From positions 24,490,001 through 24,554,000 of the forward strand of contig OZ210885.1 of the NCBI GenBank assembly GCA_964658305.1: a DNA stretch of 64,000 nt, read 5' to 3'. Numbering within the stretch: the first letter of the stretch is position 1; every line of letters starts with the position of its first letter. Positions 25,124 to 64,000 of the stretch are shown here, piece after piece. The notes below the pieces were generated by a model, which made no database searches, was not told where the DNA came from, and saw only the letters and a list, made by a program, of their open reading frames with translations. The position numbers and the translations under genes are program-made. This DNA is from Leptogorgia sarmentosa. Taxonomy: Eukaryota.

Positions 25124-26869
25124 CCAGATTATTGTACACATTCTGATCGTTATAAATGTTATTCACAACTAAAAATTGTTTTGTTTGGAGTAAGTTGTGG
25201 ACAACCAAGTAAATAAGTGATAATTATATTCGTTGTATACCATCATTTTAAGTGTAAGTAAAGTATTTAATCAAACAATATTGTATTTTTATTTAAAGGC
25301 AAATGTATCAAAACATTGGAGTTTTACAATATGATTCATATGTACATCTTAATGGTTTTACAATTCTTATATATTTTTTGAAAAAAATTGCCATCTTCTT
25401 GACTTACAATGGAGATCAATTTCGGATATTCTTGCTAACCGAATATAATTTACAGATATTTTAGGCAGATTTAAGCATTATTTTACATAGTCAATATAAA
25501 GATATTCCAGAGACATTTGTGTTTTCATTTTCCGGAGAAAATAAAGAGGTTTTACAGACATTTAAAAATGTTGTATTCATGTCCTTAATTCACACAGAAA
25601 GTATGATCATTTTAAAGAGATTTTAGATTGAATTTTTAAAATGTATGTAAATTTTCAAAAATTTACATAGAAAACAATAATATTTTACATACATTCAGTG
25701 GTTATTTGAGCAAAGGATTACCTGGAATTTACACAGATTTTGTAGAGATTCGAATTTACAAATAAGAACTTGAGATTTTACAGAGAATTTCTTAACTTTT
25801 TTGATGTCTGTAAATGGTTCAGTTTTTCCAGTGTTCAATCCCTTCCTTTTAAAACAGTTTTCAACAGTGCTTTGCTCAAGCTACAATATGCCAAATCTGA
25901 TGCCAGATGACTTTACATTACATAATAGTTAAGTTAGTGGTTACAGGGTAATTCATTATCTTTTTTGCCCATTAAATCATACAATTTGGTAACAATATAC
26001 TAGAATCTTCTACATGCTGGAATCCCTCAAGAATTATAGAATCCCAGTGGGGCCATGATATGCCAATCAATTCAAAATCTACCCATGCAATCCACTCCAG
26101 ACCAACAAAGGGATGAGATTTAGGATAACATATAGCAGGACTTATTTGTATCATAATGACAAATATATTAGGAAAGCAATTTCCAATATTTTTACATGAT
26201 AAAATAGCAAGCTGCTATCAATAGTTAAATACTGCTGTGAACAGAGCTCATAAGACAATTCTACTTTTGAAGGTTTAGTGCTCAAATAATTTACAAAACA
26301 GGGCAGAAACTTTTTGCAAGAAGGAAATTGACTTTGGTAGAAACTTCGTGCAATTTTCACAGGAGATGTGAAAACTGAAAATGCAGTAGTTGTGGTCACT
26401 CAAGTTAACAAATAATGATTTACTAATGAATATACTGCCATTTCTTTTTATGAATTTACCTAGTATATGTTTTGAAATTTCACGGTGTGACTTCGAAATA
26501 TAGATGTTGTCTTTTTTCACATTTCGTGACGTTTTAACACTTTTTTTGACATTCACCGTTGGTAATAGAATATACAACATATCTTACTTTCAGTCCTTTG
26601 AGCAAATTTATCGGTAAATAAATAAAATGCCTAAATATGTCGAAAAAAACACTGCAAAACTGAAGTTTTTATAAAAAAACCAGGGGGGTGTGGAAAGGTA
26701 GCGGGCTCATAAATCGAGCCCTGGTAAGCGGTAATTCTGTGAGGTTTTCGGTAACTACTTCATAGTCTTGATCTATTGTGGATCCTAGCTGTAATGTATC
26801 TAAGGGTTCTATACATGTTCATAATCATGAATATCCTTTCCTAACCCTCGATAATGGTACATAACCCTA

Positions 26870-28141
26870 CATAGTACTACATAGTATTCCATAGTACTGC
26901 ATAGTACTCCATAGAACTCCACAGTACTCCATGGAACTCCATAGTACTCCATGGAACTCCATAGTATTCCGTGGAACTCCATAGTATTCCATGGAACTCC
27001 ATACAGGGTGTATCAAAAAAAAGTTTACTGATGAAAAACATTCTCTAAACTAACGAGCGCTCAAAATTTCCAAAAACTTTCGGTTAGCCTGGGTAGTTTA
27101 ACACCCTCTGGTATATCTAGTACTCAGTTTATTTTAAAAACAAACTTTTTTAGAATGGGAAATGTGGTTACTGAAAGGCCCATTAAAAACGGCTTGCGCG
27201 GAAAAAATAAGTTTTCTTCACACAATTTGATTTAATCGGATGAAAATATGGAGTATGATATACAAGCTATTCAAGTTTTGAGAAATTTGGTGCACGCTGA
27301 GACGAACGCGCGATGTCCGAAAACTGGATTTTTTCGCGTAATTACGGACCTTTGGGAATTAGCTTGCAATTTGCATTGGTAATTAATGCAAATATCCAAT
27401 TATGCATAAATTAATCGGTAATCACGCAGGAAAGAACGCAAAATCCAGTTTTCGGACATAGCACGTTCGTCTCAGCGTACACCAAATTTCTCAAAACTTG
27501 AATAGCTTGTATATCATACTCCATATTTTCAACCGATTAAATCAAATTGCGTGAAGAAAACTTATTTTTTCCACACAAGCCGTTTTTAATGGGCCTTTCA
27601 GTAACCAAATTTCCCATTCTAAAGAAGTTTGTTTTTAAAATAAACTTAGTGCTAGATATACCAGAGGGTGTTAAACTACCCAGGCTAACCAAAAGTTTTT
27701 GGAAATTTTGAGCGCTCGTTAGCTTAGAGAATGTTTTTCATCAGTAAACTTTTTTTTGATACACCCTGTAGTACTCCATAGAACTCCATGGAACTCCATA
27801 GTACTCCATGGAACTCCATAGTACTCCACAGAACTCCATGGAACTCCATGCAACTCCATAGTACTCCATGCAACTCCATAGAACTCCATGGAACTCCACA
27901 GTACTCCATGGAACTCCACAGTACTCCATGGAACTCCACAGTACTCCATGGAACTCCATAGAACTCCATGGAACTCCATGGAACTCCATAGAACTCCATG
28001 GAACTCCATAGAACTCCATGGAACTCCATGAAACTCCATAGAACTCCACAGTACTCCATGGAACTCCATAGTACTCCATGGAACTCCACAGTACTCCATA
28101 GAACTCCATGGAACTCCATAGTACTGCATAGAACTCCATAG
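26870..28141 (-). repeat. 10-bp satellite array, left arm of element B (interrupted by the MITE)
   Basis: Units such as GTACTCCATA and GAACTCCATG; reverse complement of the right array. Confidence 0.97.
27004..27768. mobile_element. Tc1/mariner-type MITE, almost fully palindromic
   Basis: CAGGGTGTATCAAAAAAAAG...CTTTTTTTTGATACACCCTG; arms about 330 bp; TA TSD at 27002-27003 and 27769-27770. Confidence 0.93.
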
Positions 28142-47109: not shown

Positions 47110-47485
47110 GAATACGTTGAACCCACCAGAAAATCTGTTGAACCCACCAGAAAATACATTGGACCCACCGGAATATACGTTGAACCCACCTGAAAAGACG
47201 TTGAACCCACCAGAAAGTACGTTGAACCCACCAGAAAGTATGTTGAACCCACCAGAAAATACGCTGAACCCACCTGAAAATACGTTGAACCCACCTGAAA
47301 AGACGTTGAACCCACCAGGAAATACGTTGAACCCACCAGGAAATACGTTGAACCCACCAGGAAATACGTTGAACCCACCAGAAAAGACGTTGAACCCACC
47401 AGAAAGTACGTTGAATCCACCAGAAAAGACGTTGAACCCACCAGGAAATACGTTGAACCCACCAGAAAAGACGTTGAATCCCCAG
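47110..47485. repeat. 21-bp minisatellite, about 18 copies
   Basis: Consensus GTTGAACCCACCAGAAAATAC. Confidence 0.97.
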
Positions 47486-52985: not shown

Positions 52986-55900
52986 AGTTCCATGGAGTTC
53001 TATGCAGTACTATGGAGTTCTATGGAGTACTATGGAGTACTATGGAGTACTATGGAGTACTATGGAGTTCTATGCAGTTCTATGGAGTTCTATGGAGTTC
53101 CATGGAGTACTATGGAGTTCTATGGAGTTCTATGCAGTTCTATGGAGTACTATGGATTTCTATGGAGTTCCATGGAGTACGATGGAGTACTGTGCAGTTC
53201 TATGGAGTACGATGGAGTTCCATGGAGTACTATGGAGTTCCATGGAGTACGATGGAGTTCTATGGAGTTCCATGGAGTACTATGGAGTTCCATGGAGTAC
53301 TATGGAGTTCCATGGAGTACTGTGGAGATCTATGCAGTACTATGGAGTACTATGGAGTTCCATGGAGTACTGTGGAGTTCTATGGAGTACTATGGAGTTC
53401 CATGGAGTACTGTGGAGTTCCATGGAGTACTATGGAGTTCCATGGAGTACTATGGAGTTCCATGGAGTACTGTGGAGATCTATGCAGTACTATGGAGTAC
53501 TATGGAGTTCCATGGAGTACTGTGGAGTTCTATGGAGTACTATGGAGTACTATGGAGTTCCATGGAGTACTATGGAGTTCTATGGAGTTCCATGGAGTAC
53601 TATGGAGTTCTATGCAGTACTATGCAGTACTATGGAGTACTATGGAGTGCTATGGAGTTCCATGGAGTACTATGGAGTTCTATGCAGTTCTATGCAATAC
53701 TATGGATTTCTATGGAGTTCCATGGAGTACGATGGAGTTCCATGGAGTACTGTGCAGTTCTATGGAGTACGATGGAGTTCCATGGAGTACTATGGAGTTC
53801 CATGGAGTACGATGGAGTTCTATGGAGTTCCATGGAGTACTATGGAGTACTATGGAGTTCCATGGAGTACTGTGGAGATCTATGCAGTACTATGGAGTTC
53901 CATGGAGTTCCATGGAGTTCCATGGAGTACTGTGGAGATCTATGCAGTACTATGGAGTACTATGGAGTTCCATGGAGTACTGTGGAGTTCTATGGAGTAC
54001 TATGGAGTTCCATGGAGTACTATGGAGTTCTATGGAGTTCCATGGAGTACTATGGAGTTCCATGGAGTACTATGGAGCTCCATGGAGTACTATGGAGTTC
54101 CATGGAGTTCCATGGAGTTCCATGGAGTACTATGGAGCTCCATGGAGTACTATGGAGTTCTATGGAGTTCCATGGAGTACTATGGAGCTCCATGGAGTAC
54201 TATGGAGTTCCATGGAGTTCCATTGAGTACTGTGGAAATCTATGCAGTACTATGGAGTACTATGGAGCTCCATGGAGTACTATGGAGTTCCATGGAGTTC
54301 TATGGAGTTCCATGGAGTACTATGGAGTTCCATGGAGTACTGTGGAGTTCCATGGAGTTCTATGGAGTTCCATGGAGTACTATGGAGTTCCATGGAGTAC
54401 TATGGAGTTCCATGGAGTACTATGGAGTTCCATGGAGTACTATGGAGTTCCATGGAGTACTATCGAGTTCCATGGAGTACTATCGAGTTCCATGGAGTAC
54501 TATGGAGTTCCATGGAGTACTATGGAGTTCCATGGAGTACTATGGAGTTCCATGGAGTACTATGGAGTTCCATGGAGTACTATCGAGTTCCATGGAGTAC
54601 TATGGAGTTCCATGGAGTACTATGGAGTTCCATGGAGTTCCATGGAGTACTATGGAGCTCCATGGAGTACTATGGAGTTCCATGGAGTTCCATGGAGTTC
54701 CATGGAGTACTATGGAGCTCCATGGAGTACTATGGAGTTCTATGGAGTTCCATGGAGTACTATGGAGCTCCATGGAGTACTATAAAGTTCCATGGAGTTC
54801 CATTGAGTACTGTGGAGATCTATGCAGTACTATGGAGTACTATGGAGCTCCATGGAGTACTATGGAGTTCCATGGAGTACTATGGAGTTCCATGGAGTTC
54901 TATGGAGTTCCATGGAGTACTATGGAGTTCCATGGAGTACTGTGGAGTTCCATGGAGTTCTATGGAGTTCCATGGAGTACTATGGAGTTCCATGGAGTAC
55001 TATGGAGTTCCATGGAGTACTATGGAGTTCCATGGAGTACTATGGAGTTCCATGGAGTACTATCGAGTTCCATGGAGAACTATCGAGTTCCATGGAGTAC
55101 TATGGAGTTCCATGGAGTACTATGGAGTTCCATGGAGTACTATGGAGTTCCATGGAGTACTATGGAGTTCCATGGAGTACTATCGAGTTCCATGGAGTAC
55201 TATGGAGTTCCATGGAGTACTATGGAGTTCCATGGAGTTCCATGGAGTACTATGGAGCTCCATGGAGTACTATGGAGTTCCATGGAGTTCCATGGAGTTC
55301 CATGGAGTACTATGGAGCTCCATGGAGTACTATGGAGTTCTATGGAGTTCCATGGAGTACTATGGAGCTCCATGGAGTACTATAAAGTTCCATGGAGTTC
55401 CATTGAGTACTGTGGAGATCTATGCAGTACCATGGAGTACTATGGAGTTCTATGGAGTTCCATGGAGTACTATGGAGCTCCATGGAGTACTATGGAGTTC
55501 CATGGAGTACTGTGGAGATCTATGCAGTACTATGGAGTACTATGGAGTTCCATGGAGTACTGTGGAGTTCTATGGAATACTATGGAGTTCCATGGAGTAC
55601 TATGGAGCTCCATGGAGTACTATGGAGTTCCATGGAGTACTATGGAGTTCCATGGAGTTCCATGGAGTACTATGGAGTTCCATGGAGTACTGTGGAGATC
55701 TATGCAGTACTATGGAGTTCCATGGAGTACTGTGGAGTTCTATGGAGTTCCATGGAGTACTATGGAGTTCTATGGAGTTCCATGGAGTACTATGGAGTTC
55801 TATGGAGTTCCATGGAGTACTATGGAGTTCCATGGAGTACTGTGGAGTTCCATGGAGTTCCATGGAGTACTATGGAGTTCCATGGAGTACTATGGAGTTC

Positions 55901-57505
55901 CATGGAGTACTATGGAGTTCCATGGAGTACTATGGAGTTCCATGGAGTACTATGGAGTTCCATGGAGTACTATGGAGTTCCATGGAGTACTATGGAGTTC
56001 CATGGAGTACTATGGAGTTCCATGGAGTTCCATGGAGTTCTATGGAGTTCCATGGAGTACTGTGGAGATCTATGCAGTACTATGGAGTACTATGGAGCTC
56101 CATGGAGTTCCATGGAGTTCTATGGAGTTCCATGGATTTCTATGGAGTGCCATGGAGTTCCATGGAGTACTGTGGAGATCTATGCAGTACTATGGAGTAC
56201 TATGGAGTTCCATGGAGTACTGTGGAGTTCTATGGAGTACTATGGAGTTCCATGGAGTACTATGGAGTTCCATGGAGTACTATGGAGTTCTATGGAGTTC
56301 CATGGAGTTCCATGGAGTACTATGGAGCTCCATGGAGTACTATGGAGTTCCATGGAGTACTGTGGAGATCTATGCAGTACTATGGAGTACTATGGAGTTC
56401 CATGGAGTACTGTGGAGTTCTATGGAATACTATGGAGTTCCATGGAGTACTATGGAGCTCCATGGAGTACTATGGAGTTCCATGGAGTACTATGGAGTTC
56501 CATGGAGTTCCATGGAGTACTATGGAGTTCCATGGAGTACTGTGGAGATCTATGCAGTACTATGGAGTTCCATGGAGTACTGTGGAGTTCTATGGAGTTC
56601 CATGGAGTACTATGGAGTTCTATGGAGTTCCATGGAGTACTATGGAGTTCCATGGAGTACTATGGAGTTCCATGGAGTACTGTGGAGATCTATGCAATAC
56701 TATGGAGTACTATGGAGTTCCATGGAGTACTGTAAAGTTCTATGGAGTTCCATGGAGTACTATGGAGTTCTATGGAGTACTATGGAGTTCTATGGAGTTC
56801 TATGGAGTTCCATGGAGTTCTATGGAGTTCCATGGAGTACTATGGAGTTCCATGGAGTACTGTGGAGGTCTATGCAGTACTATGGAGTTCCATGGAGTTC
56901 CATGGAGTACTGTAAAGTTCTATGGAGTACTATGGAGTTCCATGGAGTACTATGAAGTTCCATGGAGTACTATGGAGTTCCATGGAGTACTATGGAGCTC
57001 CATGAAGTACTATGGAGTTCTATGGAGTTCCATGGAGTACTATGGAGTTCCATGGAGTACTGTGGAGATCTATGCAGTACTATGGAGCTCCATGGAGTAC
57101 TATGGAGTACTATGGAGTTCCATGGAGTACTGTGGAGTTCTATGGAATACTATGGAGTTCCATGGAGTACTATGGAGCTCCATGGAGTACTATGGAGTTC
57201 CATGGAGTTCTATGGAGTTCCATGGAGTTCTATGGAGTTCCATGGAGTACTATGGAGTTCCATGGAGTACTGTGGAGATCTATGCAGTACCATGGAGTAC
57301 TATGGAGTTCCATGGAGTACTGTGGAGTTCTATGGAGTTCCATGGAGTACTATGGAATTCCATGGAGTACTATGGAGTTCCATGGAGTTCTATGCAGTAC
57401 TATGGAGTTCCATGGAGTACTATGGAGTACTATGGAGTTCCATGGAGTACTGTGGAGTTCTATGGAGTACTATGCAGTACTATGGAATACTATGTAGTAC
57501 TATGT
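52986..57505 (+). repeat. About 4.5-kb 10-bp satellite (YATGGAGTWC), right arm of element B
   Basis: About 450 in-register units, mostly TATGGAGTTC and CATGGAGTAC, with recurrent variants TGTGGAGATC and TATGCAGTAC. Confidence 0.99.
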
Positions 57506-57866
57506 AGGGTTATGTACCATTATCGAGGGTTAGGAAAGGATATTCATGATTATGAACATGTATAGAACCCTTAGATACATTACAGCTGGGATCCACAATA
57601 GATCAAGACTATGAAGTAGTTACCAGGTTTTCAGACCAGTTGTCATGGAAATGGCATCAGCAAATGACGAATTTTTGGCTTCACTTTTTGTTCGCGTGCG
57701 CTTCCTCCAGTATGGTGGCCGAGAACTGCCATTTCGAAAATTGAGTTTATTTTCATTTTATATCAACGTGGCCGAGAACTGCCAACTGCCAAATTATCTA
57801 TACCCATTTGTCCTTAATATCCATCATATTACCCATAGTTACCCTTAGTTATCACAAGCTGTTAAG

Positions 57867-59358
57867 ATGGCGGAAATACAAAAATGGAGGAGATTTGCGA
57901 ACGCCATAAAAAAGAAACGAACGACAGGCCAAACAACAAAGAAAAATGGAAATCAAAAAGAAAGTAACAGCGGTGGTTCGTCGGACAACAGTATTTTTGA
58001 AAGAAAAGAGCTTTTAGTGCAACTGTTAGCAACAGAAGCTACTGGAAAGGCGAAGAAATATGAAAGAACTGGTCCCAAGGAATTTGTGGCTTTTCCGTAC
58101 GAAGAAGTAACAATTCCTAACATCATAAGGGCTTGCAATAAACATTTTCAAAAGCATCTCAAGGGCAAGTCAGTTGATGTTCTGGCAAGCGAACGTGGTC
58201 CTTCGTGTTCCAAAATCTCGCAACTGCCAGATCTTAAATTAATACACGTGCGTTTTGTCATCAATTCCTCGGTTCCTCTCTCGAGTTCTCCATTTCCCAG
58301 CTATAGGGAAGGTTTGTCCTCTGGTGTATTAACGCCACGAATATCTGTTCCGTGCTCCACAATTAGTTCCAGTCTGAAGCGACGAACATCACCACCATTG
58401 TGAGTGAACAAGTTCCCCAAAAGCCTTCCAGTAACCGCGATGATGAAGCTAGGCTCACCCATTAACGTCACAGACTGTCAAAGTGAAACTTTAGTTGACG
58501 TTTCCTGCTTCGACATAAATAAAATGGCTTGGTCAACTCCCATCTTTGTTCCATTTACCATAGAAAAAGAAGAATTTGGAAAAGGTGGCTTTCGTTCTGC
58601 ATACAAAGCATCTTGTAACTTGCCTCATTTTCCAACAAGAGCATATGTTGTCAAATACTTTTTGGAAAGTACTAAGAAAATTATTAGCGACCTTGGAGAG
58701 TCGGAGTTGTATCACGCTCGAAAATCGGTCCAAATGCATTCCCTGGCCAAACATTTTTCGGAAAAAATTGCTACCAAGGTGAAAAAGGATGGGAATGAAG
58801 AAGTGTTTGGAAGAACCTTCAGGTATAATAAAATAACATGAAATCTAAGGTCTTATTGCCATCAAGTGTGCTAATATCAATTATTTACGAAAGTCTGGTT
58901 CGGGGTTTGATTGGATCTACTTGGACACACACATGCTTGCTTTAATATTTTCAGTTTTTTATTTCTCTAGATATGTAGATGCTCATCTTGGAATTGTCAA
59001 AGATACGCAACAGGTTGTCACAATTGAAGAACTTGTGACAGGCAGTTTCGAGAAGTATGTGAATAATGATGGTGTCATTTGTAAGAACAAGAATGATGAT
59101 TTGCAAAACAAGGCAGAGTGTCTCGTCCACTTCTCTTATATCAAATCCAATAGGAAATTAATGCTTGTGGATATCCAAGGTGCAGGCCACAATCTGACAG
59201 ATCCAGAAATTGCATCACTTACTGGGGCTTATGATGATGAGAACCATTTGCTTTTCTGTGCTGGCAACTTTTCCAAAGAAGCTTATGCCAACTTTTTTAA
59301 GGTACATGAGTGCAATGCGTTTTGCAATTTGCTGGAACTTTCACCCGAAGATGTTTGA
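57867..59358 (+). CDS. Alpha-kinase (eEF2K/MHCK/TRPM-type) domain protein with one in-frame TGA
   Basis: FGKGGFRSAYKA, YVVKYF, FEKYVNNDG, HFSY, LVDIQG, LTDPEIAS, GNFS, HECNAFC; intron 58823-58970 joins in phase; TGA at 58401-58403. Confidence 0.88.
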
Positions 59359-59420
59359 ATAAACATTTGGCATAACTTACCACTTATTATAGTATTTATA
59401 TTTTGCAAATAATTTTAATA

Positions 59421-59446
59421 GTTGTTGTTGTTGTTGTTGTTGTTGT
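59421..59446. repeat. (GTT)n microsatellite
   Basis: About 8 GTT units. Confidence 0.9.
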
Positions 59447-59644
59447 GGTGATAAGACACAGAGCCATTGGTACATGCAAACAATTTTGCTGTACAATTTG
59501 TCAGAACGTTGCATTATAACGTTGACTGATCTGTGATCAGAGACTGTACTTTTATATGTGTATCTTGTTACTTTTGTTAAAATAAAATGAATTGTAGAAT
59601 ATTTCAGTTGAATGTTTGAAAGATGTCAATATAGTACATTCGAA

Positions 59645-61173
59645 TCAGATCTCTTTCATTTCAAAATATCTTTGCTTCAGTGTGAGATATGATTGGACAA
59701 ATTCATTACACTTTATTTCTTCAGGATTTTGCCTCAAATCATCCAAATCTTTTCGAAATGATGGTGGGATATAGTCTTCAGGAGCATCTAAAACCCCAGA
59801 TAACTTTGCAACTTGCGCCAGATCTTCTTGAGATACATGGAATCCTAAAATTGAAGTTTATGAATTCAGCACTGTTAAAAAAATCTGCACATAAGAGCAA
59901 TGAAGTATAAATAACACATGAGTTTAAGATACCTTTTTTTTCCATTCCATATCTGTCTGGGAATTCATATATGTGATTTGGAACTCCATCTGCCATTAAT
60001 GTATCCTTTTGAGCCCTGATCCTATGAGTATTCCACACAGTATCTCTGAATTCATTCAGCTCTCTTTGCATGACTGGTATCATTATATAGGCCAGGATGT
60101 ACCTAAAATATCAGGCAATGGATTGTGAGTACTACTTTTATACCTGAAAGGTCTTAAAGCCCACATTTTTTATTTATCAGAACTTAAGCATTAGACCATA
60201 AATTACCTGTCTATTTCTTGGCTTGGATCGTAATGGCATTCTTCCTTTAACCAGCATAAACCAGCTTTGAAATATTTTTCTAATCTGTCGTGAAGTTCAC
60301 GCCACCATCGCTCAATCTGAAAAAGACATCAAGAAGAGAAATTTTATTTCTATAGGAATCAGTGCAATACTTAGTGAAAGACTGTTAGTTAATTTATTTA
60401 ATCAATTATTTAATTGTTTGATTGAATTTATACCTGATTTGATGGGGAAGGTCCAAATAAAATTGATTCAGATGGGTCTTGTAAATCACCTTGCCTCTCT
60501 CGAAGATATACATGTATAGTACTCATAGTGGTTGTCTCTGTTCCCTTATCCAAGCAAAGGTAATGAGGTAATGTGTGACTTTCTAATAGGGCTTCAAGGT
60601 ACCACTTTCCTATCAGAAGTGGATTGGATTGGTATTCCAAATTCTAATCCACATCAGTTTACGGCTAGCCGTATCCACACAACCATAAATGGCTAATGGA
60701 AAGGTTGAATTTTGAAACCCCGTCAATTTATCGTGGCCATCAAGTGAGTATGTCCAGTTGGGGCCTAATGTTACAAAATGACCTTTAGCTTTGGCTTTTT
60801 TGGCACCAGGTGCCCTAGCTGCCAGTCCATCAGGATCAAGGTCAAACATGAGGTTATGAACTAGATCTCTCGGGACCTTTAATTTGTACTTTTGGCGAAG
60901 TTTTTGAGTCATTGCTCGATACCCAAGCAGCTTTCCGGACCCATCAAGCTCTTGGATCACTGCTTCTCTTGCATCTTCCACTGAAACATTCCCATCAATA
61001 TATCTTATCTCGAAATAATTAAGTCTTCGGTCGAGAGAACGCAGGCTCCATTTGTAGCATGGATAATCTCTAGCCATAAAATCTAGAACTTCAGTACGCT
61101 GTAGTCGCTGTTGAACATATTTTATCAGATCGTTTTTCAACTTCGCATCATTTTTCCACGTTGTCGTCGCCAT
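59645..61173 (-). pseudogene. IS3EU-type integrase-core transposase, 4 exons, one frameshift
   Basis: GYRAMTQKL, GPNWTYSLDGHDKL, GCVDTASR, LDKGTE, SNQ/IERWWRELH, WNTHRIR; exons about 61173-60435, 60317-60207, 60103-59932, 59845-59645; frameshift near 60625. Confidence 0.85.
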
Positions 61174-61498
61174 ATTGAATGAAACAAAGGGTACTGCAAT
61201 AGTAACTATGGGTAATATGATGGATATTAAGGACAAATGGGTATAGATAATTTGGCAGTTGACAGTTCTCGGCCACGTTGATATAAATGTTTTTTAAATT
61301 AAAATAATAAACAATAAAGTTGTATTTTTGTGCTTTATTTTTTTTTGTTTTTAACTGTTATTTAAGAACTTTTTGATAAGTTTTAAAAGTAAATATGAAA
61401 ATAAACTCAATTTTCGAAATGGCAGTTCTCGGCCACCATACTCCAGTAATATAATATAGCTCAGTGGGAAAAACACATTGAAACAAGGTAAAACAAAT

Positions 61499-62717
61499 AT
61501 GGCGGACAAAGTTCTCGCAAAATTTACTCTTTTAAAAAAGCATAGAGTTCTTTGCAAAAAGACTTTGACTACTATTAGCATTATCTGCCATTACTATATG
61601 TAATCCTCCAGTTGATCGAGGAGTATGGATGTTACCTCGTACTGATCACTGGTATTCAATTGTGCGGACAAAATCGTCAGATAAGGAGTGGTATTCGAAT
61701 TTCCGCGTTTCTGGGGAAACGTTTGATTACATACTGTCCAGAATTTCTACCGAGATCAGCCACAAAGACACTAAACTATGTGAAGCAATTCCTCCAACAA
61801 AACGTCTAGCCATTTATCTGTACTATTTGGGCTCTACTGCTGAATATCGAACTATCGCGAACTTGTTTGGTGTGTCGAATGCATTCGTTTGTTTATGCGT
61901 TAAGGAGGTATCTGAGGCTATTTATAAGAAAATGAAGAAGAAGTTTCTGTGTCTAAGGGTGATGACCTGAAGAATGTCATGGCAATGTACAAAGAAAGGT
62001 GGGGATTTCCTATGTGTCCAGGTGCCATTGATGGCACACACATTGCAATACAAGCCCCTGCTGGAAACCATGCTGATTATGTCAACAGAAAAAGTTATCA
62101 TAGTATAGTAATGCAGGCAGTGGTGGACTGCCAGTATCTTTTTTGTGATGTCGTCATTGGATGGCCAGGCAGTGTCCATGACGCTAGAGTCCTGTCCAAT
62201 TTGGAGATTTACAGCCTTGGTTCCCAATCGCAGTTGTTTGATGTCAATGTGAAAAAGAAAATTCTTGGTGTTGATGTTGGGCCAGTTATTCTTGGCGACC
62301 CTGCCTATCCACTCCTGATATGGCTGATGAAAGCATATTCTGAAAACGCCAACACACCCAAATGGCAGACGTTTTAATTATCGGCTTAGTAGGGCCAGAA
62401 TGACTGTCGAGAACACATTCGGTAGGTGGAAGGGTCGGTTTAGAAGATTTAGCAAGAGAGTTGATATGCAAGTTGAATCAGTTACCTACCTTGCAGCCTC
62501 TTCATGTGTTGTTCACAACATCTGTGAGCTTAGACGAGATGACTTTTTTCAAGAGTGGTTAGAAGTGTGCAACAATGTTGACCAACCTGAAAGCCTACCA
62601 TTATCAAATGAAGATGTGGATTCACAATGTGAGTCAGATGCCACAGTTGTTCGAGATACTCTGGCAAGATATTTCACAACAATGGAGGGCAGAAATATTG
62701 AGCAAGGGATTGTATAA
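61499..62717 (+). pseudogene. Harbinger/HARBI1-like transposase, frameshifted
   Basis: NFRVSGETF, YRTIANLFGVS, GAIDGTHI, GWPGSVHDARV, LGDPAYPL, VENTFGRWKGRF, VHNIC; frameshifts near 61620, 61950 and 62372. Confidence 0.92.
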
Positions 62718-63400
62718 ACATATTTTGGTACAGGCTAAATGTACATGTATTGTAAATTTACAGGCTCTAAAGTCAACCTTTCTATCCAGTGGTATAATCA
62801 TAGATGTTGTGACAATAGATTTTTTTGTATTTCAGAGTAAGATTCTGTATAATATTTACTCAAGTTGCCCTATTTAAAATGTGACAAATTAAATTAAGTT
62901 TGATCTGATTATTTATACTGCATATGGTAGATAAAGTTCCCCTTTTTGTCAATAAGTATTGTTGCGTTGAGTTTTATAAGAACAAATAACATAACAATTA
63001 ACATGAAGTATAGAGATATTTGCCGCCCGCAAGACAAAAAAGCGCGCGAACAAAAGGAAGCCATATTTTGATGTTGACATTTATTCCGAAGTAAAAGCGT
63101 ATAAAAAGTGATGTTTCAATTAAAGGTTTAAGTCTAAAGGTTTAAGTAACAGTGGTTTGGACAAATGTAAGTAAATGAGGTATTATGTAGTCTAATTTAG
63201 TGCACGCAAATAGTCATAAATATCTTTATTTCTTTATTTCCTTATAGCTTCAGATTGCATATATTTGCATGTCAAATATAATAAATAAGAAACCAAACCA
63301 TTGTTTATGTTGAATTGTCGTGCGCCATCGGTCCACTATCTGAAGATTTTCTATATGTTTGCTGATGGTGCTATGTACTGAACTTTGTCTGTAAATTACA

Positions 63401-64000
63401 ATGGATAACGATACGAATAAAGCTAAGAATGCGCGTCGGGGTGCAAAGGGTGCTCTGACGAGGGCAATCAACGTAACAAGGGAAATCATGGAAGCATATC
63501 GTTCGAAAAGTGAAGTGACAAAAGCCCTGATTGCAGTACAACAAGCCCACGATGCCCTATTGATGAAACATGAAGAATTTGCCATGTTATTAGACGATGA
63601 AGAGTTCGAAGAAGCTGAAAGATGGATGCAAGTTTGTACAAGTGAGTACACAGCCTTTACTATGAGTTGTCATGACTATATTAATGAAGTAAATGGAGAT
63701 AAAAGTAAACAGAATACAAGTGACATTGACGTTGTGGAAACAAGCGCTGGGAACGATGAGCAAAACGATCATGGTGAAGGAAGTAACGAAATGATTGAGC
63801 AGTCTGCTGTTTCTAATGAAAGTAATCACCCAAACACAATTCAAAACCCTGATGCAATAGAACCAAGTTCGAGTTCAGCCAAGCCCTTTACTGTAAAACA
63901 CGAAAAAGCCAAGTTACCTGTGTTTGCTGGGGACGTTCGACAGTATTTCATATTTAAGTCAGATTTTAAACACGCTGTTGAAGCACAATATTCTGAAAGA
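63401..64000 (+). CDS. BEL/Pao Gag N-terminus, runs off the window
   Basis: Open frame from ATG 63401 (MDNDTNKAKNARRGAKGALTR...) to KLPVFAGDVRQYFIFKSDF (DUF1759-like); possible 5' LTR at about 62960-63118. Confidence 0.75.
   Translation, partial: MDNDTNKAKNARRGAKGALTRAINVTREIMEAYRSKSEVTKALIAVQQAHDALLMKHEEFAMLLDDEEFEEAERWMQVCTSEYTAFTMSCHDYINEVNGDKSKQNTSDIDVVETSAGNDEQNDHGEGSNEMIEQSAVSNESNHPNTIQNPDAIEPSSSSAKPFTVKHEKAKLPVFAGDVRQYFIFKSDFKHAVEAQYSER

What the first reader, a model, noticed from the sequence alone, without database searches (positions are those of the whole stretch)
57711..61440. IS3EU-type transposon carrying an alpha-kinase as its second gene
Seen: exact 6-bp TSD and TAT...ATA ends enclose only a transposase and a convergent, intron-containing alpha-kinase with catalytic (K, D-x-Q, D-P) and zinc-binding (H...HxC...C) residues preserved. 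Each gene has just one lesion. Inference: the kinase is a fixed accessory gene, so some alpha-kinase expansions in such genomes may be transposon-driven.
Basis: partly seen in the sequence, partly recalled or inferred. Interest (0 to 1): 0.75.

Follow-up and report, generated by a model that had tools for sequence, protein, structure and literature searches.

The report
IS3EU transposon carrying its own kinase
A young but broken 3.7-kb DNA transposon, likely from a cnidarian, carries an alpha-kinase gene facing its transposase gene; related elements keep the same pair and conserve the kinase, so it is likely a standing helper gene of these transposons, a pairing already mentioned in print for fungi, and what it phosphorylates is unknown.

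Summary
Confirmed. 57711-61440 is an IS3EU/GingerRoot DNA transposon: 6-bp target duplication CTCCAG, TATGG...CCATA ends, a four-exon integrase-core transposase (one frameshift) and a convergent two-exon alpha-kinase (one TGA), catalytic and zinc residues intact. All 5 of 5 related metagenome loci (four families) carry the kinase in the same place and orientation; transposase and kinase divergences track each other (Spearman 0.94); between families the kinase is under purifying selection (dN/dS 0.20, transposase 0.12). Other runs read CGA at 58401 and lack the frameshift, but carry their own lesions: young copies decay neutrally in both genes. The kinase has a conserved N-terminal domain predicted to be ubiquitin-like. 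The transposase-plus-opposed-alpha-kinase layout is already stated for fungal IS3EU (Kojima 2025, PMC12730594), and this scan noted it before in fungal and invertebrate DNA. What this adds: the animal form, selection evidence, and a likely explanation for kinase-only cnidarian genes annotated as TRPM6-, eEF2K- or MHCK-like. No genome was held, so genome-wide counts were not made. New member of a known kind; interest 0.38.

The parts
57705..57710 (.). Left target-site duplication CTCCAG
   Evidence: contigs of related host repeats run from this flank straight into sequence like the right flank (loose ends at 57712/57713 in X1, X4, X5)
57711..61440 (.). Whole IS3EU/GingerRoot element, 3730 bp
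57711..57842 (+). Left terminal inverted repeat (46 + 86 bp), two GTGGCCGAGAACTG motifs, 107-bp AT-rich spacer missing; ends 24 bp before the kinase ATG
   Evidence: the spacer is present on the kinase side of L002 and the transposase side of L001
57867..58822 (+). Alpha-kinase exon 1: basic N-terminal helix, beta-grasp domain, disordered linker, N-lobe of the kinase
57987..58265 (+). Conserved N-terminal domain (residues 41-133), predicted ubiquitin-like beta-grasp fold; no Pfam match
   Evidence: model pLDDT 91.5; Foldseek best E 0.008, rows mostly ubiquitin-like, PB1 and Ras-binding domains; VIA Z up to 6.2, rmsd 3.5, 73 aligned; present in 116 of 130 kinase hits
58401..58403 (+). Premature TGA at kinase codon 179, a CpG-type change
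   Evidence: runs X1 and X5 read C at 58401; homologues P0062 and P0065 have R here
58823..58970 (+). Kinase intron, 148 bp, GT-AG
   Evidence: homologues without the gap align across it
58971..59358 (+). Alpha-kinase exon 2: catalytic D-x-Q, D-P-E and zinc ligands, stop
   Evidence: Pfam PF02816 E 2.9e-26
59645..59844 (-). Transposase exon 4 with stop
59933..60102 (-). Transposase exon 3
60207..60316 (-). Transposase exon 2, catalytic E249 (IERWW)
60434..61173 (-). Transposase exon 1: helix-turn-helix-like region, D145 and D209; 1-bp frameshift near 60628
   Evidence: X1 and X5 contigs have one more base behind 60627
61202..61440 (-). Right terminal inverted repeat, 239 bp with spacer; ends 28 bp before the transposase ATG
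61441..61446 (.). Right target-site duplication CTCCAG

Best explanation
This is a young, broken copy of a two-gene IS3EU/GingerRoot DNA transposon whose second gene is an alpha-kinase that is inherited and conserved with the transposase and likely serves the element's own spread. Shown: element anatomy, linkage in relatives, co-divergence, purifying selection between families, intact catalytic residues. From knowledge of DDE transposons: the transposase binds the terminal repeats, cuts and inserts with a 6-bp stagger. Inferred: each terminal repeat doubles as the promoter of the gene next to it, which would explain the inward-facing layout and would switch both genes on together; the kinase likely enters the nucleus through its basic N-terminus, uses the beta-grasp domain to dock on a partner, and phosphorylates host chromatin or silencing proteins to favour transposition (my odds for this target about 0.4; the transposase itself about 0.3; something else about 0.3). 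Intact kinase-only 'host genes' of this architecture in cnidarian annotations are likely other copies of such elements.
For: Anatomy. Linkage: kinase convergent with the transposase in L001, L002, L004, L005 and its tail at the cut end of L003: 5 of 5 loci, four families since L003 and L005 are 92% alike; L001, L002 and L003 also show a TATGGTGGCC end. Co-divergence over 10 pairs of 5 elements: Spearman 0.94, 1 of 120 permutations as high. Selection, window against L001: kinase dN/dS 0.20 (bootstrap 0.10-0.34, 129 codons, second exon only), transposase 0.12 (0.08-0.18, 381 codons), dS 0.46 and 0.49; against L002 synonymous sites are saturated while the N-terminal domain and the kinase C-lobe keep 65% and 64% identity and the linker 21%. 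Mobility: a second insertion with duplication CAGCAG, its flanks seen in X1, X6 and X7. Linked kinases fall on both sides of the midpoint root of the 87-row tree. The inner repeat motif lies 86-121 bp before the ATG in all 6 gene starts examined. Fold: TRPM7 kinase Z 22.4, rmsd 2.9, 226 aligned; MHCK A Z 21.5. Print: same opposed pair in fungal IS3EU; TRPM6/7 kinases phosphorylate histones in the nucleus (passage).
Against: No test of activity, substrate, localisation or promoter was possible. Only five related loci were found, all short metagenome contigs, chosen by transposase likeness; none holds both ends with a duplication. No contig spans the second insertion, so that it holds both genes is not shown directly. 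Among 30 listed coding differences between young copies the kinase shows 15 non-synonymous to 2 synonymous, including a stop, plus a 4-bp and an 18-bp deletion in X1: compatible with neutrality (p 0.55) and not with dN/dS 0.2 (p 0.0001); the transposase behaves alike (12 to 1). The dN/dS rests on one unsaturated pair. Accession numbers and contig lengths of 10 transposase and 10 kinase clusters showed no neighbouring pair in named cnidarian genomes; only P0049 and P0083 share a contig length, 17,739. The tree is a quick one with few columns and weak inner support. Some IS3EU relatives are described without a kinase.
Confidence: 0.75

Rival explanations
1. The kinase acts on the transposition machinery itself: it binds and phosphorylates the transposase (or scaffolds it through the beta-grasp domain), as a required second subunit or a brake, like the second proteins of Harbinger or EnSpm elements (recalled).
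For: Tight co-divergence with the transposase; shared upstream motif at equal distance for both genes; IS3EU are described as two-protein elements (passage).
Against: Co-divergence follows from linkage alone. Styx/REP9 is mobile and no kinase is mentioned among its four genes in the passages seen.
Confidence: 0.3
2. The kinase is a host gene captured recently by one element and carried as a passenger, as GingerRoot elements capture gene fragments.
For: GingerRoot elements hold host gene fragments with introns (22 of 77; passage); the kinase has an intron; young copies lose it freely.
Against: Whole gene, same place and orientation in families whose transposases are only about 50% identical; saturated synonymous sites with conserved catalytic residues; same layout in fungi.
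Confidence: 0.04
3. The kinase is kept because it helps the host (stress or immune signalling), and elements that carry it are tolerated or domesticated for that reason.
For: Many full-length, intact members exist and several are annotated as host genes in Paramuricea, Exaiptasia, Clytia, Dendronephthya and Ciona; some come from sources that may be transcript assemblies (not checked).
Against: Every copy seen closely is decaying (window; X1; P0065 ends at the same 4-bp deletion); the kinase follows the transposase's history; many database members are fragments.
Confidence: 0.1

Closest known systems
IS3EU/GingerRoot superfamily (Repbase; Kojima and Bao 2023, PMC10045372; Cerbin et al. 2019, PMC6839031)
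   Same: TA..TA termini, 6-bp duplication, repeats over 100 bp, DDD/E transposase without HHCC; core motifs match the published alignment (xxDGxDKL, GxxDxxSR, DxGxE, NQxIExxW); found in corals and sea anemones.
   Different: Neither paper's main text contains the word 'kinase'. Here the second gene is identified and tested for selection.
TET+ IS3EU families of rust fungi and Tuber (Kojima 2025, PMC12730594)
   Same: Transposase and alpha-kinase in opposite orientation; ends TAYGG..CCRTA; 6-bp duplication.
   Different: Those are 8-13 kb in the rows seen and hold a TET/JBP gene between the two; this element is 3.7 kb with only the two genes and is animal. The paper gives the kinase two sentences and no analysis. 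Whether fungal and animal kinases share one origin was not tested.
Alpha-kinase family PF02816: TRPM6/7 kinase, MHCK A, eEF2K, ALPK1
   Same: Fold and all catalytic and zinc residues. Best solved match by sequence is TRPM7 (99.6 bits; next 80.6; ALPK1 38).
   Different: Own architecture: basic helix, beta-grasp domain, linker, kinase; no channel, WD40, Ig or vWA domain (82 of 82 members match Alpha_kinase and no other Pfam family is matched by more than 2). By structure TRPM7 and MHCK A are tied.
Cnidarian kinase-only 'TRPM6-like' genes (PMC13143021)
   Same: The paper notes that they hold only a kinase domain and are wrongly annotated (passage); proteins with such names are among the hits (P0070, P0156, P0143).
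   Different: The paper does not link them to transposons (0 occurrences of 'transpos'). I did not check its Table S1 against these ids.

Membership tests
IS3EU/GingerRoot | TA..TA termini (TAYGG..CCRTA in the fungal set) | tested here: met
   TATGG...CCATA; criteria
IS3EU/GingerRoot | 6-bp target-site duplication | tested here: met
   CTCCAG here; CAGCAG at a second site
IS3EU/GingerRoot | Terminal inverted repeats longer than 30 bp (100-150 bp in GingerRoot) | tested here: met
   132 aligned bases, 131 matching
IS3EU/GingerRoot | DDD/E integrase-type transposase, first D 100-300 residues from the start, no HHCC | tested here: met
   D145, D209, E249; intact homologues match rva_4 at E 1e-19 to 1e-23; motifs match published cores by eye; no zinc-finger family in Pfam scans
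IS3EU/GingerRoot | Placement inside the IS3EU/GingerRoot clade in a transposase tree | not testable with these tools
   Reference Repbase sequences could be read in a supplement but were not available as sequences for a tree
IS3EU/GingerRoot | Two protein genes; alpha-kinase opposite to the transposase as in fungal families | tested here: met
   criteria
Alpha-kinase (PF02816) | Profile match above the curated cut-off | tested here: met
   93.1 bits against 21.3
Alpha-kinase (PF02816) | Catalytic K, hinge E, D-x-Q, D-P and zinc H/H/C/C (roles recalled from TRPM7 and MHCK structures) | tested here: met
Alpha-kinase (PF02816) | Alpha-kinase fold | tested here: met
   model of homologue P0066: Z 22.4 to 16.9 for five alpha-kinases, next 8.2
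Alpha-kinase (PF02816) | Protein kinase activity | not testable with these tools
   needs an assay; the window's copy is truncated by its stop
TRPM6/7 channel-kinases | Melastatin and channel domains fused to the kinase | tested here: not met
   447-codon gene inside the element; no such Pfam domain in 82 members
Ubiquitin-like beta-grasp domains | Beta-grasp fold | tested here: met
   confident model; the 50 rows shown are beta-grasp domains of several kinds, best Z 6.2
Ubiquitin-like beta-grasp domains | Assignment to a named subfamily (ubiquitin, PB1, Ras-binding) | tested here: inconclusive
   rows tied at Z 5.4-6.2, identity up to 16%

The most novel reading that the evidence does not exclude
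IS3EU elements are an old, kingdom-spanning vehicle for an alpha-kinase that works as a chromatin-directed anti-silencing enzyme; they account for most kinase-only alpha-kinase genes of cnidarians, and the animal ALPK2/3-TRPM6/7 kinase branch descends from a domesticated copy of this transposon kinase. The first half is likely; the descent rests only on TRPM7 being the best solved match by sequence, is not backed by structure and had no tree.
Probability: 0.08. Interest if true: 0.8.

Novelty: new member of a known kind. Interest (0 to 1): 0.38.

Why it matters
Protein kinases are rare as standing genes of DNA transposons. The pairing has been mentioned for fungi but, in the papers I could search, not analysed. 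This copy shows the minimal two-gene form in an animal, with evidence that selection keeps the kinase, and gives a small system in which one can ask what a transposon gains by phosphorylating proteins. It also warns that many 'TRPM6-like', 'eEF2K' or 'myosin heavy chain kinase-like' genes in coral and anemone annotations are likely transposon genes, which bears on gene-family expansion claims. The locus itself is a dead copy.

Tried and rejected
No genome was held, so genome-wide counts were not made. No RNA holder was listed. Complex prediction of transposase with kinase was not available. No relative of the kinase was found in viral contigs (129 pattern hits, none confirmed) or prokaryote genomes (22 hits, none confirmed). 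No second copy of either gene lies in the window. The atlas gave no usable hit for the N-terminal domain; a second query did not complete. The wide structural search for that domain was not available; the second-look search was used instead. Accession adjacency in named genomes gave nothing, but sampled different clusters and is a weak test. dN/dS for most pairs is undefined because synonymous sites are saturated; L003 against L005 (1.33, 0-5.3) is uninformative. The bacterial promoter scan does not apply to this organism and found nothing. Depth figures of contigs were not used as copy numbers. Look-ups of earlier notes by place, by sequence and by coral words were empty. Iyer et al. 2014 and Kojima 2019 were not held; Repbase Reports cannot be searched here and may already describe the kinase in animal IS3EU families. 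Rejected: chance repeat, recent gene capture, TRPM6/7 membership.
Full report
Observation. CTCCAG flanks 57711-61440 on both sides and the ends read TATGG...CCATA. The repeats match at 46 of 46 and 85 of 86 bases; the right one holds a 107-bp AT-rich spacer that the left lacks. The end motif occurs 4 times in the window, all in these repeats, against 0.05 expected. Contigs of related host repeats run from the left flank directly into sequence like the right flank in X1, X4 and X5, as an empty site would; these are other copies of the host repeat, not this locus.

Genes. The kinase model is 57867-58822 plus 58971-59358, 447 codons, with one stop at codon 179. Its second exon matches Pfam Alpha_kinase at 93 bits against a cut-off of 21.3. 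Against 86 near-full-length homologues, 60 columns are at least 90% conserved and the window departs at 2 of them, neither catalytic; K263, E338, D386, Q388, D396 and the zinc ligands H372, H431, C433, C437 are kept (their roles are recalled from TRPM7 and MHCK and agree with the alignment). The transposase model has four exons, 406 codons, one frameshift near 60628 and the triad D145, D209, E249. It departs from 40 homologues at 8 of 108 conserved columns, one being the broken codon; five of the others are shared with L001 and two (S79, C207) are not. The named transposase homologues among 60 hits are from Dendronephthya, Clytia, Actinostola and Exaiptasia, so the host is likely a cnidarian (inference).

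Is the kinase a standing part? A scan of metagenome contigs with the transposase gave 204 pattern hits and 5 confirmed loci. Four show a convergent kinase by tblastn; the fifth, L003, ends 186 bp after its transposase, and its last bases encode the kinase's HxC...C tail. So 5 of 5, in four families, as L003 and L005 are 92% alike. L001, L002 and L003 each show one TATGGTGGCC end. Transposase identities to the window are 88, 73, 71 and 50% and kinase identities 83, 59, 58 and 38% (the kinase regions compared differ by contig); over 10 pairs Spearman is 0.94, reached by 1 of 120 permutations. This is what linkage gives and shows no more than shared descent.

Selection. The one unsaturated pair, window against L001, gives dN/dS 0.20 (0.10-0.34) for 129 kinase codons and 0.12 (0.08-0.18) for 381 transposase codons at similar dS. 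Against L002 synonymous sites are saturated while the N-terminal domain keeps 65% identity, the two kinase lobes 53% and 64%, and the 19 aligned linker codons 21%. Young copies tell another story. Of 56 differences found in four runs 40 were listed; I used 39 (one lies outside the element); 30 are coding: 15 non-synonymous to 2 synonymous in the kinase and 12 to 1 in the transposase. Both fit neutrality (p 0.55, 0.33) and reject 0.2 (p 0.0001, 0.0003). X1 and X5 read CGA at 58401 and have the base missing near 60628, so both window lesions are recent; but X1 carries another kinase stop and deletions of 4 and 18 bp, and X5 a transposase stop. This is ordinary decay after insertion and hits both genes.

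Age and mobility. The seven longest inner X1 pieces differ from the window at 17 of 3455 bases (summed). A second insertion shows flanks that give the duplication CAGCAG: both flanks in X1, one in X6 and X7. No piece spans it, so its gene content is not shown. Only 6 of 16 listed runs were laid, all as contigs.

The kinase family. Searches gave 39 hits for the N-terminal part, 144 for a profile, 120 listed, and 550 clusters at 50% identity with E up to 1e-30 (this may include host alpha-kinases). 116 of 130 hits carry the N-terminal domain; the 14 misses are all under 300 residues. That domain folds confidently (pLDDT 91.5) and matches only beta-grasp domains, weakly and without a winner. The kinase domain of homologue P0066 matches TRPM7 (Z 22.4) and MHCK A (21.5), a tie; by sequence TRPM7 leads. 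In a quick tree of 87 C-lobes the six linked kinases (one linked only by a shared contig length) fall on both sides of the midpoint root, among proteins annotated as TRPM6-, MHCK- and ALPK1-like; support is weak. A check of accession numbers in 20 clusters found no neighbouring pair.

Mechanism. Cut-and-paste by a DDE transposase with a 6-bp stagger follows from family knowledge. The inner repeat motif lies 86-121 bp before the ATG in 6 of 6 gene starts, so I infer that each repeat is also a promoter and that this explains the convergent layout. A gene kept under selection inside a selfish element most likely aids the element. I favour a host chromatin or silencing target (about 0.4), by analogy with TRPM6/7 kinases that phosphorylate histones (passage) and with the TET genes that ride in fungal IS3EU, over the transposase (about 0.3). 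Neither was tested.

What is known. PMC12730594 (passages, section 4.1 whole, part 1 of 20 of the supplement, and a supplement search with no 'kinase' hit) states that all TET+ IS3EU families have a transposase and an alpha-kinase in opposite orientations. PMC10045372 (passages and supplement passages) defines the termini and duplication and shows matching cores. PMC6839031 (passages), PMC8232023 and PMC10853768 (passages) mention no element kinase; PMC11934779 (passages) calls IS3EU structure largely unexplored. PMC13143021 (passages) notes kinase-only cnidarian 'TRPM6-like' genes and derives the TRPM6/7 kinase from an ALPK2/3 ancestor. Eight searches showed no paper that analyses the kinase or reports it in animals, but most listed papers were seen only as listings, and Repbase Reports, Kojima 2019 and Iyer 2014 were not held. 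Earlier notes of this scan report the pair in fungi and in another invertebrate; I had reached the reading and the paper before that look-up.

Verdict. A real, dead, young member of a known two-gene superfamily. New member of a known kind, interest 0.38.

Noticed in passing
window 57705-57710; second site; L001:210-215; L003:2825-2830: The four target sites seen read CTCCAG, CAGCAG, GACCAG and TGCCAG in one orientation: all end in CAG next to the TATGG end, hinting at a target preference near CTGCAG. Only four sites.
   Followed up: no
window 61500-62717 (+): Broken Harbinger/PIF-type transposase (DDE_Tnp_4, E 1.6e-18). The IS3EU copy sits about 60 bp before its likely start, inside a repeat that has many relatives in the runs.
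   Followed up: partly
window 52992-57498, 26870-28141, 57510-57624 and 26750-26864: A 10/20-bp satellite array of 227 units with smaller inverted copies 25-30 kb away, and a 115-bp 99% identical inverted duplicate right beside both arrays: perhaps a satellite-bearing mobile element. Its long open frames are repeat artefacts.
   Followed up: no
window 63395-64000 (+): Open frame of 200 codons running off the window with no Pfam match above cut-off; it recalls the gag region of BEL/Pao retrotransposons (recalled, untested).
   Followed up: no
window 58419-58458 (+), kinase residues about 185-197: A conserved PKS-x-x-x-x-x-M-x-x-LG segment before the kinase domain, with a short predicted helix, recalls the dimer-swapping segment of the TRPM7 kinase (recalled, untested).
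   Followed up: no
L002, L004, L005 against the window: Intron number varies among families: the L002 kinase and the L005 transposase align without intron gaps, and L004 lacks the first transposase intron.
   Followed up: no
window 60266-60316 and 61278-61356: Contigs of X4 and X5 share only this 50-bp piece of the transposase with other DNA, and X8 has an end that skips 77 bp of the right repeat: traces of related or deleted elements.
   Followed up: no
window 47111-47485: A 21-bp tandem array of 18 copies.
   Followed up: no
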